Part shown: piece after piece, positions 56,145-56,642 of the stretch | Layout: every line of letters starts with the position of its first letter | Numbering within the stretch: position 1 is the first letter of the stretch | Origin: a virus | Taxonomy: Duplodnaviria > Caudoviricetes | IMG/VR virus record: IMGVR_UViG_3300046804_003398 | Strand: one strand, 5' to 3' | Length of the DNA stretch: 64,000 nt | Made by a program: the position numbers and the translations under genes | Notes under the pieces: model-generated | The model's database searches: none | What the model saw: the letters and a program-made list of their open reading frames with translations, nothing else | Told to the model about the DNA's origin: nothing

Positions 56145-56642
56145 CAACCCTATCCTATCTGGAACAGATTCGTCCGGGTCAGACATACAGGGGTGTATCG
56201 TGTCCCTCACGCCATGGCTAAACCACCACAAGATCTTTGACACAGCCGTAGCCGCTGTTCTGTTTTATCCCTACATTTATCTCAGACACCTTGGCGGTTT
56301 TATGGGCATATTTAACCCACAGATTATTAGCCGAACACAGCCGTTGGTTATTGTTTCGGACCTAGCCAAGTTCAAACCTCTACCATTGTCTGGTTGTCCG
56401 TTAAAGACAACTGCTCCAACCTATCCCTTCAAACGTGCAGCACTACACTCGGGTTATTTAGGATTACTGCTAATATGTGGTGTTTTCGAATTAAGGTTAA
56501 CCGGACTGCTCCTTGCTTCCACGGAATTGCAGTCGTTTAATCATTGTGGGCAATATGAAGTTAACTTACATTCTCCCAATCATCTGCTGTGCAGCATCGA
56601 ACTTCCTCTAGGATATTATCCCAGCGTAGGATCGCTTGTGTC
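56145..56642 (-). ncRNA. ROOL-like large structured ncRNA
   Basis: About 500 nt with no credible ORF inside the tRNA array; long-range helices CCCACA..GATTA / TAATC-TGTGGG and CACAAG.GATC / GATCTTGTG; the CCCACAATGATTAAA segment matches my recollection of ROOL. Boundaries approximate. Confidence 0.6.

What the first reader, a model, noticed from the sequence alone, without database searches (positions are those of the whole stretch)
56145..56642. ROOL-like ~500-nt structured RNA inside the tRNA array
Seen: it begins 6 nt after the CCA of tRNA-Gln and has several long-range helices (CCCACA+GATTA at 56550-56538 with TAATC+TGTGGG at 56326-56316; 56640-56630 with 56235-56227) and local hairpins (GTTGTC/GACAAC, ACAGC/GCTGT). 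Established: ROOL RNAs are ~600 nt, phage-associated and tRNA-adjacent. Inference: possibly a compact or divergent ROOL. It would sit under the same upstream control as the tRNAs, including the candidate attenuator.
Basis: partly seen in the sequence, partly recalled or inferred. Interest (0 to 1): 0.68.

Follow-up and report, generated by a model that had tools for sequence, protein, structure and literature searches.

The report
Phage-encoded reduced RNase P RNA
The stretch is not a ROOL RNA but a roughly 410-base, phage-encoded, cut-down relative of RNase P RNA (the ribozyme that trims new tRNAs) sitting inside the phage's own tRNA gene cluster; standard RNA libraries miss this kind of gene and I found no paper that describes it.

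Summary
On the minus strand, 56645-56236, three bases after the encoded CCA of a tRNA-Gln, lies a real structured RNA. It is not ROOL: no Rfam family matches it, even at E<=10.

It has the architecture of the catalytic half of bacterial type-A RNase P RNA: P1, P2, P3, the P4 pseudoknot with its bulged U, P5, the P6 pseudoknot, P15-P17 and P18. These come in E. coli's order, and the junction sequences are near-identical to E. coli M1 RNA.

I found 15 distinct relatives (about 240-410 nt) in viral and metagenome contigs, all inside tRNA arrays, and none in 185,579 prokaryote genomes. Across them 95.6% of cells pair, and 33 of 63 pairs change on both sides.

The substrate-reading S-domain is replaced by a swappable insert. 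This window's copy also carries a 98-nt insert in P18 that is complementary to that insert.

Profile searches do not link the family to E. coli rnpB, so homology rests on motifs plus topology. Catalysis is inferred.

The last ~95 nt of the reported span are a separate module. Earlier notes of this scan proposed RNase P RNA for this same stretch and reported similar RNAs on other DNA.

The parts
56652..56722 (-). tRNA-Gln(UUG) with a non-canonical T-loop and an encoded CCA (56651-56649). With the RNA it forms a cassette that is an indel relative to close relatives.
   Evidence: Rfam tRNA model 34.3 bits. ARAGORN misses it. The cassette is absent from L003/L006.
56236..56645 (-). The whole RNase P-like RNA, about 410 nt, from the P1 5' strand to the P1 3' strand.
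   Evidence: Family alignment A4 and covariation. Coordinates.
56637..56645 (-). P1 5' strand UUUGACACA. It pairs with 56244-56236.
   Evidence: 6 of 9 pairs change on both sides across relatives.
56626..56631 (-). P2 5' strand UCCUAC. It pairs with 56274-56269 (GUAGGG).
   Evidence: 100% of cells paired, 3 of 6 pairs with double changes. Also found independently by RNAalifold.
56608..56624 (-). P3 hairpin.
   Evidence: 4 of 7 pairs with double changes. G-C becomes A-U even in the 97%-identical relative.
56595..56606 (-). CR-I / P4 5' strand GGAAGUUCGAUG, with the bulged U at 56600.
   Evidence: Matches E. coli 63-74 in register. P4 is 99.2% paired. Position 56597 pairs with 56255 as A-U (10 members), C-G (4) or A.G (this window only).
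56591..56594 (-). P5 5' strand CUGC. It pairs with 56470-56467 (GCAG).
   Evidence: C-G becomes U-A in 3 members.
56585..56588 (-). P6 pseudoknot 5' strand AGCA. It pairs with UGCU in the P17 loop (within 56448-56435).
   Evidence: AGCA/UGCU becomes AACU/AGUU in L020 and L034. Same topology as E. coli 82-85/276-279.
56484..56572 (-). Swappable insert at the site of the specificity (S) domain, 89 nt here. It is flanked by the conserved UGGGAG and ACCACA (a P7 remnant, UGG/CCA).
   Evidence: Relatives carry anything from about 11 to about 170 nt of unrelated sequence at this site. The stem that closes the insert covaries.
56415..56466 (-). J5/15 UAA, P15 (UCC/GGA), the L15 internal loop (UAAAUA on the 5' side, AUAGGUU with GGU on the 3' side), P16 and P17.
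   Evidence: Aligns motif for motif with E. coli 247-299. P15, P16 and P17 covary.
56393..56411 (-). Extra hairpin between P15 and P18 (GUUGUC/GACAAC).
   Evidence: All 6 pairs (helices 12 and 13) change on both sides.
56283..56392 (-). P18 base CAGACA/UGUCUG enclosing a 98-nt insert (56386-56289) where 10 of 15 relatives have a GNRA tetraloop.
   Evidence: L038 is the same RNA without the insert.
56249..56282 (-). J18/2 AGAUAAAU, P2 3' strand, J2/4 and CR-V (ACAGAA + CAGCGGCU + A), which is the P4 3' strand.
   Evidence: E. coli has AGAUGAAU, then the P2 3' strand, then ...ACAGAA + CCCGGCUU + A, in the same order and spacing.
56131..56235 (-). Separate conserved module of about 100 nt downstream.
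   Evidence: It occurs without the RNA in L004/L005 and 1.45 kb from it in L032.

Best explanation
The region encodes a phage version of RNase P RNA. It keeps a complete type-A-like catalytic domain (P1-P6, P15-P18, with both pseudoknots), but the specificity domain has been replaced by a short, interchangeable insert.

It is transcribed as part of the phage's tRNA array. Its ends are probably set by the enzymes that process the neighbouring tRNAs.

The most likely function is this: it binds the host's RNase P protein (RnpA), since no phage copy was found, and removes 5' leaders from the phage's many CCA-encoding pre-tRNAs, the tmRNA and tRNA-like RNAs. Its L15 GGU would pair with their CCA ends.

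What is shown: the conserved structure, the motifs, the context and the distribution. What is inferred: catalysis, the protein partner and the substrates.
For: 1. Structure is under selection. Across 15 distinct relatives, 95.6% of cells pair, and 33 of 63 pairs have double changes against 8-14 in slid controls; 0 of 500 shuffles reach this. RNAalifold recovers P2, P3, P5, P15-P18 on its own.

2. Every helix of the E. coli M1 catalytic domain is present in the same order. I verified those helices directly on the fetched rnpB sequence. Junction lengths agree within 1-3 nt. Junction sequences are near-identical: GGAANNUC with the bulged U; YAA-P15-AAAUA; GGU one base before the P15 3' strand; AGAUAAAU against AGAUGAAU; ACAGAA-N4-G-NN-UA.

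3. A descriptor made only of E. coli's own motifs plus P4, P2 and P1 pairing hits E. coli rnpB and the family members, and nothing else, in 1 Mb of real DNA. It never reaches the level that adds the J18/2 motif and the P2 and P1 pairing in 25.6 Mb of shuffled window.

4. P4 position 72:355 is A-U, C-G or A.G across the family.

5. Every family locus fetched lies in a tRNA array, with all tRNAs on the RNA's strand. All 14 tRNAs of this array encode CCA.

6. There is a precedent for S-domain loss. [quoted passage not shown] The E. coli C-domain alone still cleaves (PMC5839562 abstract).
Against: - No Rfam RNase P model (bacterial A or B, archaeal, type T, nuclear) matches, even at E<=10. RF00010 finds nothing in the relative G001.
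- The family profile does not find E. coli rnpB by nhmmer.
- A covariance model of the 3' half finds a held-out family member (E 7e-9) but not rnpB. Homology therefore rests on short motifs plus topology, and the descriptor was written after I had seen the sequences.
- The S-domain, which normally reads the tRNA elbow, is missing.
- This window's copy has an A.G mismatch in P4.
- Close relatives with the same tRNA array lack the RNA, so it is dispensable.
- There are no expression or activity data.
Confidence: 0.7

Rival explanations
1. An RNase P-derived RNA that no longer cuts. Instead it acts as a decoy or regulator, for example by soaking up host RnpA protein or pre-tRNA 3' ends to redirect host tRNA processing.
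For: The S-domain is lost and the site is filled by unrelated inserts. The window copy has a P4 mismatch. No phage RnpA was found. The element is dispensable among close relatives.
Against: The positions that matter for catalysis and substrate docking are the most conserved parts of the family: the GGAA motif and bulged U of P4, J5/15 AA, L15 GGU, J18/2 and ACAGAA. A pure protein sponge would not need L15 GGU or P6.
Confidence: 0.12
2. A structured RNA or ribozyme unrelated to RNase P that resembles it by convergence.
For: No profile method links it to bona fide RNase P RNA.
Against: About a dozen helices and five junction motifs coincide with E. coli M1 in order, spacing and sequence. Convergence on all of them is very unlikely.
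Confidence: 0.06
3. A compact or divergent ROOL RNA.
For: It is large, phage-borne and next to tRNAs. A genuine GOLLD RNA lies 6 kb away.
Against: No ROOL model match at any threshold. The covarying structure is RNase P-like, with two pseudoknots.
Confidence: 0.02
4. A protein-coding gene on the plus strand (ORF 56200-56697, 165 aa).
For: The antisense frame is stop-free over the whole RNA (142 codons) in window-type copies.
Against: The frame is broken in distant members, with longest open stretches of 37-78 codons. The ORF overlaps a tRNA in antisense. There is no Pfam match. Substitutions are compensatory in stems, and the insertions and deletions are not all multiples of three.
Confidence: 0.02

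Closest known systems
Bacterial type-A RNase P RNA (E. coli M1 RNA / rnpB, 377 nt; Rfam RF00010)
   Same: The full catalytic-domain architecture is shared: P1, P2, P3, the P4 pseudoknot with its bulged U, P5, the P6 pseudoknot to the P17 loop, P15/L15 with GGU, and a GNRA-capped P18 in most relatives. The J3/4, J5/15, L15, J18/2 and J2/4-CR-V sequences are near-identical.
   Different: There is no S-domain (P8-P14, CR-II and CR-III); an interchangeable insert takes its place. There is an extra hairpin between P15 and P18. P3 is short. The P4 sequence is GUUCGNUG/CANCGGC instead of AGUCCGGG/CCCGGCUU. It is encoded by a phage inside a tRNA array. RF00010 does not detect it.
Archaeal type T RNase P RNA (Thermoproteaceae; Rfam RF02357)
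   Same: It is a natural RNase P RNA that lacks most of the S-domain, keeps the conserved P4, J2/4 and J15/2 positions, was missed by earlier covariance models, and is still catalytic (PMC3579882, PMC7191817).
   Different: Type T is archaeal, works with several proteins, and has a 3-bp P2 and a 2-nt P5/P15 linker. The phage RNA has a 6-bp P2, a 3-nt linker and bacterial-style P6, P16, P17 and L15 GGU. RF02357 does not match it.
Engineered C-domain-only E. coli RNase P RNA (Eco CP RPR)
   Same: It shows that a type-A catalytic domain without the S-domain can still cleave, with reduced efficiency (PMC5839562 abstract).
   Different: It is a laboratory construct. The phage RNAs are natural, conserved and carry replacement inserts.
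ROOL RNA (Rfam RF03087)
   Same: It is a large, phage-associated RNA often found near tRNAs.
   Different: There is no sequence or structure match, and the fold is different.

Membership tests
RNase P RNA (bacterial type A) | Match to the curated covariance models (RF00010, and also RF00011, RF00373, RF02357, RF00009). | tested here: not met
   No match at gathering score or at E<=10, even on the 431 nt alone. RF00010 finds nothing in G001, while the controls ring.
RNase P RNA (bacterial type A) | The P4 long-range helix formed by CR-I (GGAANNUC...) and CR-V (ACAGAA-N4-G-NN-UA), with a single bulged U. | tested here: met
   The register is identical to E. coli 63-74/347-361. 99.2% of cells pair, with an A-U to C-G exchange at one pair.
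RNase P RNA (bacterial type A) | P1-P2-P3 framing in which the P2 3' strand lies between J18/2 and J2/4, making P4 a pseudoknot with P2. | tested here: met
   Same order and spacing as in E. coli. P1, P2 and P3 all covary.
RNase P RNA (bacterial type A) | Conserved J18/2 (J15/2) and J2/4 nucleotides. | tested here: met
   AGAUAAAU against E. coli AGAUGAAU, and ACAGAA identical. PMC3579882 names these regions as holding universally conserved positions.
RNase P RNA (bacterial type A) | J5/15 adenosines and a P15-L15-P16 internal loop with GGU for the tRNA 3' CCA. | tested here: met
   UAA-UCC-UAAAUA ... AGGUU-GGA against E. coli CAA-GGCC-AAAUA ... GGGUA-GGCU. P15 and P16 covary. All 14 tRNAs encode CCA. 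The role of GGU is established knowledge and was not tested here.
RNase P RNA (bacterial type A) | P6 pseudoknot between J5/7 and the P17 loop (present in type A, absent in type B). | tested here: met
   AGCA/UGCU becomes AACU/AGUU in L020 and L034.
RNase P RNA (bacterial type A) | Specificity domain (P8-P14, CR-II, CR-III). | tested here: not met
   Only a 3-bp P7 remnant and a variable insert of about 11 to about 170 nt occupy the site.
RNase P RNA (bacterial type A) | Endonucleolytic removal of pre-tRNA 5' leaders. | not testable with these tools
   Needs a cleavage assay.
RNase P RNA (bacterial type A) | Protein cofactor RnpA. | tested here: inconclusive
   No PF00825 match in 7 viral records that carry the family, including one 303-kb record rated 89% complete. 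The host protein would have to serve, and the host is unknown.
ROOL RNA | Match to RF03087. | tested here: not met
   No match. The conserved fold is RNase P-like.
Archaeal type T RNase P RNA | Match to RF02357, with a 3-bp P2 and a 2-nt P5/P15 linker (PMC3579882). | tested here: not met
   No match. P2 is 6 bp and the linker is 3 nt.

The most novel reading that the evidence does not exclude
Giant freshwater phages carry their own active RNase P ribozyme whose tRNA-elbow-reading domain has been swapped for exchangeable modules. This would free it from the normal elbow check, so it could process the phage's odd tRNAs and tRNA-shaped RNAs. In this window's version, the usual P18-to-S-domain tetraloop contact would be replaced by about 20 Watson-Crick pairs between a P18 insert and the S-site insert.
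Probability: 0.3. Interest if true: 0.85.

Novelty: new variant of a known kind. Interest (0 to 1): 0.8.

Why it matters
RNase P RNA is regarded as a cellular and organellar housekeeping ribozyme. A virus-encoded one would add the last missing piece to the translation toolkit of giant phages, which already includes tRNAs, tmRNA and tRNA-modifying enzymes.

It would also give a natural bacterial-type counterpart to the archaeal type T minimal enzyme. Its natural series of S-domain replacements, from about 11 to about 170 nt, is a ready-made experiment on what the S-domain is needed for.

Finally, it shows that current RNase P models and descriptors, which lean on the S-domain (PMC2996960), systematically miss such genes.

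Tried and rejected
- ROOL or any other Rfam family: three cmscan runs, down to the 431 nt alone at E<=10, gave nothing.
- Single-sequence folding: the energy is not unusual (z -0.68), so it is not informative.
- Cultured phages: blastn in distant mode found no match. Only the tRNAs match Bacillus phages. PhoH is below 37% identical to any cultured phage's.
- Prokaryote genomes: the family's 21-nt CR-I pattern has no match in 185,579 species genomes.
- A PhoH-based attempt to reach bacterial genomes, for a cross-phylum rnpB set, found nothing. A genome handle could not be obtained from the E. coli locus. The comparison therefore uses E. coli M1 only.
- Profile links to rnpB: nhmmer found none. 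The 3'-half model R1 finds the held-out L030 but not rnpB.
- A loose CR-I/CR-V/P4 motif scan alone is not specific: it gives many 6-of-8 chance hits in coding DNA.
- Coding on the antisense strand is rejected.
- Pseudo-tRNAs filling the gap are rejected: there is no tRNA-model hit inside 56236-56645 at E<=10.
- Literature: six full-text searches found no report of a phage- or virus-encoded RNase P RNA.

Full report
WHAT IS THERE

The tRNAs, the tmRNA (55054-55438) and a GOLLD RNA (62789-63256) all lie on the minus strand. The Rfam tRNA model also finds two tRNAs that ARAGORN misses. One is a tRNA-Gln(UUG) at 56652-56722, whose encoded CCA ends at 56649. The reported stretch begins right after it.

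No Rfam family matches the stretch. This holds at gathering score, at E<=10 on 1.1 kb, and at E<=10 on the 431 nt alone. ROOL is therefore excluded as far as that model goes. The folding energy of the single sequence is ordinary (z = -0.68).

THE LEAD

An earlier first-reader note of this scan on the same stretch proposed RNase P RNA. I checked this directly. The minus strand reads GGAAGUUCGAUG at 56606-56595 and ACAGAACAGCGGCUA at 56263-56249. These can form an 8-bp helix with one bulged U, in the same register as E. coli P4.

RELATIVES

- The nearest viral record (97% identical) already shows compensatory changes in P3, in the GUUGUC hairpin and in P2. It also turns the window's A.G in P4 into A-U.
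- Pattern scans of IMG/VR and of JGI metagenomes gave 25 loci. They reduce to 15 distinct full-length members of about 240-410 nt.
- The most conserved 21-nt block has no match in 185,579 prokaryote species genomes, and no cultured phage matches.
- Every family locus lies in a tRNA array, with all tRNAs on the RNA's strand and usually a tRNA-Gln upstream.
- Close relatives of this phage with the same array lack the tRNA-Gln plus RNA cassette.
- The last ~95 nt of the reported span are a separate module that also occurs without the RNA.

STRUCTURE

I wrote one structure for the family alignment A4 and counted it.
- 95.6% of 938 cells pair.
- 33 of 63 pairs change on both sides, against 8-14 when partners are slid by 1-3 columns.
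- None of 500 shuffles reaches any of the measures.
- P1, P2, P3, P5, P15, P16, P17, the extra hairpin and P18 all covary.
- P4 has one exchanging pair (A-U in 10 members, C-G in 4, A.G in the window only).
- The P6 pseudoknot has two exchanging pairs.
- RNAalifold, which knew nothing of my structure, recovers P2, P3, P5, the stem that closes the S-site insert, P15, P16, P17, the extra hairpin and P18.

COMPARISON WITH E. COLI M1 RNA

I fetched rnpB and verified its helices on that sequence. The phage RNA has the same elements in the same order, with junctions of the same length within 1-3 nt:
- P1, P2 and P3.
- GGA, then the P4 5' strand with the bulged U, then P5 directly after it.
- The P6 5' strand two bases later (three in E. 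coli).
- P5 3' strand, then YAA, then P15, then AAAUA, then P16 and P17, with the P6 3' strand in the P17 loop.
- GGU one base before the P15 3' strand.
- P18 (GNRA loop in 10 of 15 members).
- AGAUAAAU (E. coli AGAUGAAU) abutting the P2 3' strand.
- ...ACAGAA, then the P4 3' strand, then A, then 4-5 nt, then the P1 3' strand.

A descriptor made only of E. coli's own motifs plus P4, P2 and P1 pairing hits rnpB and the family members, and nothing else, in 1 Mb of real DNA. It never reaches the level that adds the J18/2 motif and the P2 and P1 pairing in 25.6 Mb of shuffled window. I wrote that descriptor after seeing the sequences, so it shows specificity; it is not an unbiased probability.

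WHAT DOES NOT FIT

- Profile methods fail in both directions: the Rfam RNase P models, nhmmer from the family to rnpB, and a covariance model of the 3' half. That model finds a held-out divergent member at E 7e-9 but not rnpB.
- The S-domain is absent. Between the conserved UGGGAG and ACCACA (a 3-bp P7 remnant) the members carry unrelated inserts of about 11 to about 170 nt.
- Membership in RNase P RNA as Rfam defines it is therefore not met. Membership by the core features that the literature used to accept type T (conserved positions in P4, J2/4 and J15/2; PMC3579882) is met.

THIS WINDOW'S COPY

- It carries the 89-nt S-site insert (56572-56484).
- Where the otherwise near-identical L038 has a GCAA loop on P18, it carries a 98-nt insert (56386-56289).
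- The two inserts are complementary over about 28 nt. The duplex energy is -45.9 against -30.5 +/- 4.4 kcal/mol for shuffles, reached by 1 of 500.
- In bacterial RNase P the P18 tetraloop docks into the S-domain (established knowledge, not tested here). A base-paired version of that contact is therefore a sensible reading, but an untested one. Only near-identical copies have both inserts, and a local hairpin in the insert competes.

FUNCTION

Shown: a conserved RNA with an RNase P catalytic-domain architecture, inside phage tRNA arrays, next to CCA-encoding tRNAs. No minus-strand terminator-like site lies between the array's leader and the tmRNA terminator.

Inferred: it is released by tRNA-processing enzymes, binds the host's RnpA, and cleaves the 5' leaders of phage tRNA precursors. 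No PF00825 match was found in 7 viral records, one of them 303 kb and rated 89% complete. Precedents make this plausible: type T RNAs are active without most of the S-domain (PMC7191817), and the E. coli C-domain alone cleaves (PMC5839562 abstract).

Rivals are a non-catalytic decoy, convergence, ROOL, and an antisense ORF. The ORF frame is broken in distant members.

NOVELTY

Six full-text searches found no report of a virus-encoded RNase P RNA. RNase P finders lean on the S-domain (PMC2996960) and list only cellular classes A, B, C, M and T (PMC7191817). Other agents of this scan reported similar RNAs on other DNA. I rebuilt the family independently here.

Noticed in passing
window 56131-56236 (-): A conserved module of about 100 nt directly after the RNase P-like RNA. 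It occurs without that RNA in L004/L005 and 1.45 kb away from it in L032. Its function is unknown, and there is no Rfam match beyond a chance-level sroE hit.
   Followed up: partly
window 56615-56644 (-): The best sigma-70-like match of the region (11 of 12, with TG) lies inside the RNA. TTGACA is the P1 5' strand and GATAAT is the P3 loop. It is not kept in L035, L020 or L030, so it is probably a coincidence.
   Followed up: partly
window 56229-56656 (+ strand frame): The antisense frame is stop-free over the whole RNA (142 codons) in window-type copies. It is broken in distant members. This is unusual for a chance frame, but it is not conserved.
   Followed up: yes
window 56652-56722 and 56736-56808 (-): Two tRNAs that ARAGORN misses but the Rfam tRNA model finds. 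The first (Gln, UUG) has the T-loop AGCGUAA instead of UUCRANY.
   Followed up: partly
window 56212-56725 versus L003:6400-6730: The tRNA-Gln plus RNase P-like RNA cassette is an insertion or deletion between phages whose flanks are 94-99% identical. A tRNA-Gln lies upstream of the RNA in most family loci, including divergent ones.
   Followed up: partly
window 56597 / 56255: This window's copy alone has an A.G mismatch in P4. Ten members have A-U and four have C-G.
   Followed up: yes
window 55652-57856 (-): All 14 tRNAs of the array encode CCA. In most it is followed by an A/U-rich spacer such as AUUU.
   Followed up: yes
L020:9400-9445 and L030:391-430: The divergent subfamily has an extra hairpin inserted in J2/4, between the P2 3' strand and ACAGAA/ACAAAA. 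Bacterial RNase P RNA has no helix there.
   Followed up: no
L036:2200-2290 (-): One member has a P3 expanded by about 50 nt. L031 (a 303-kb phage record) also has a longer P3 and a very small S-site hairpin. L031 is cut at the locus end and was not completed.
   Followed up: no
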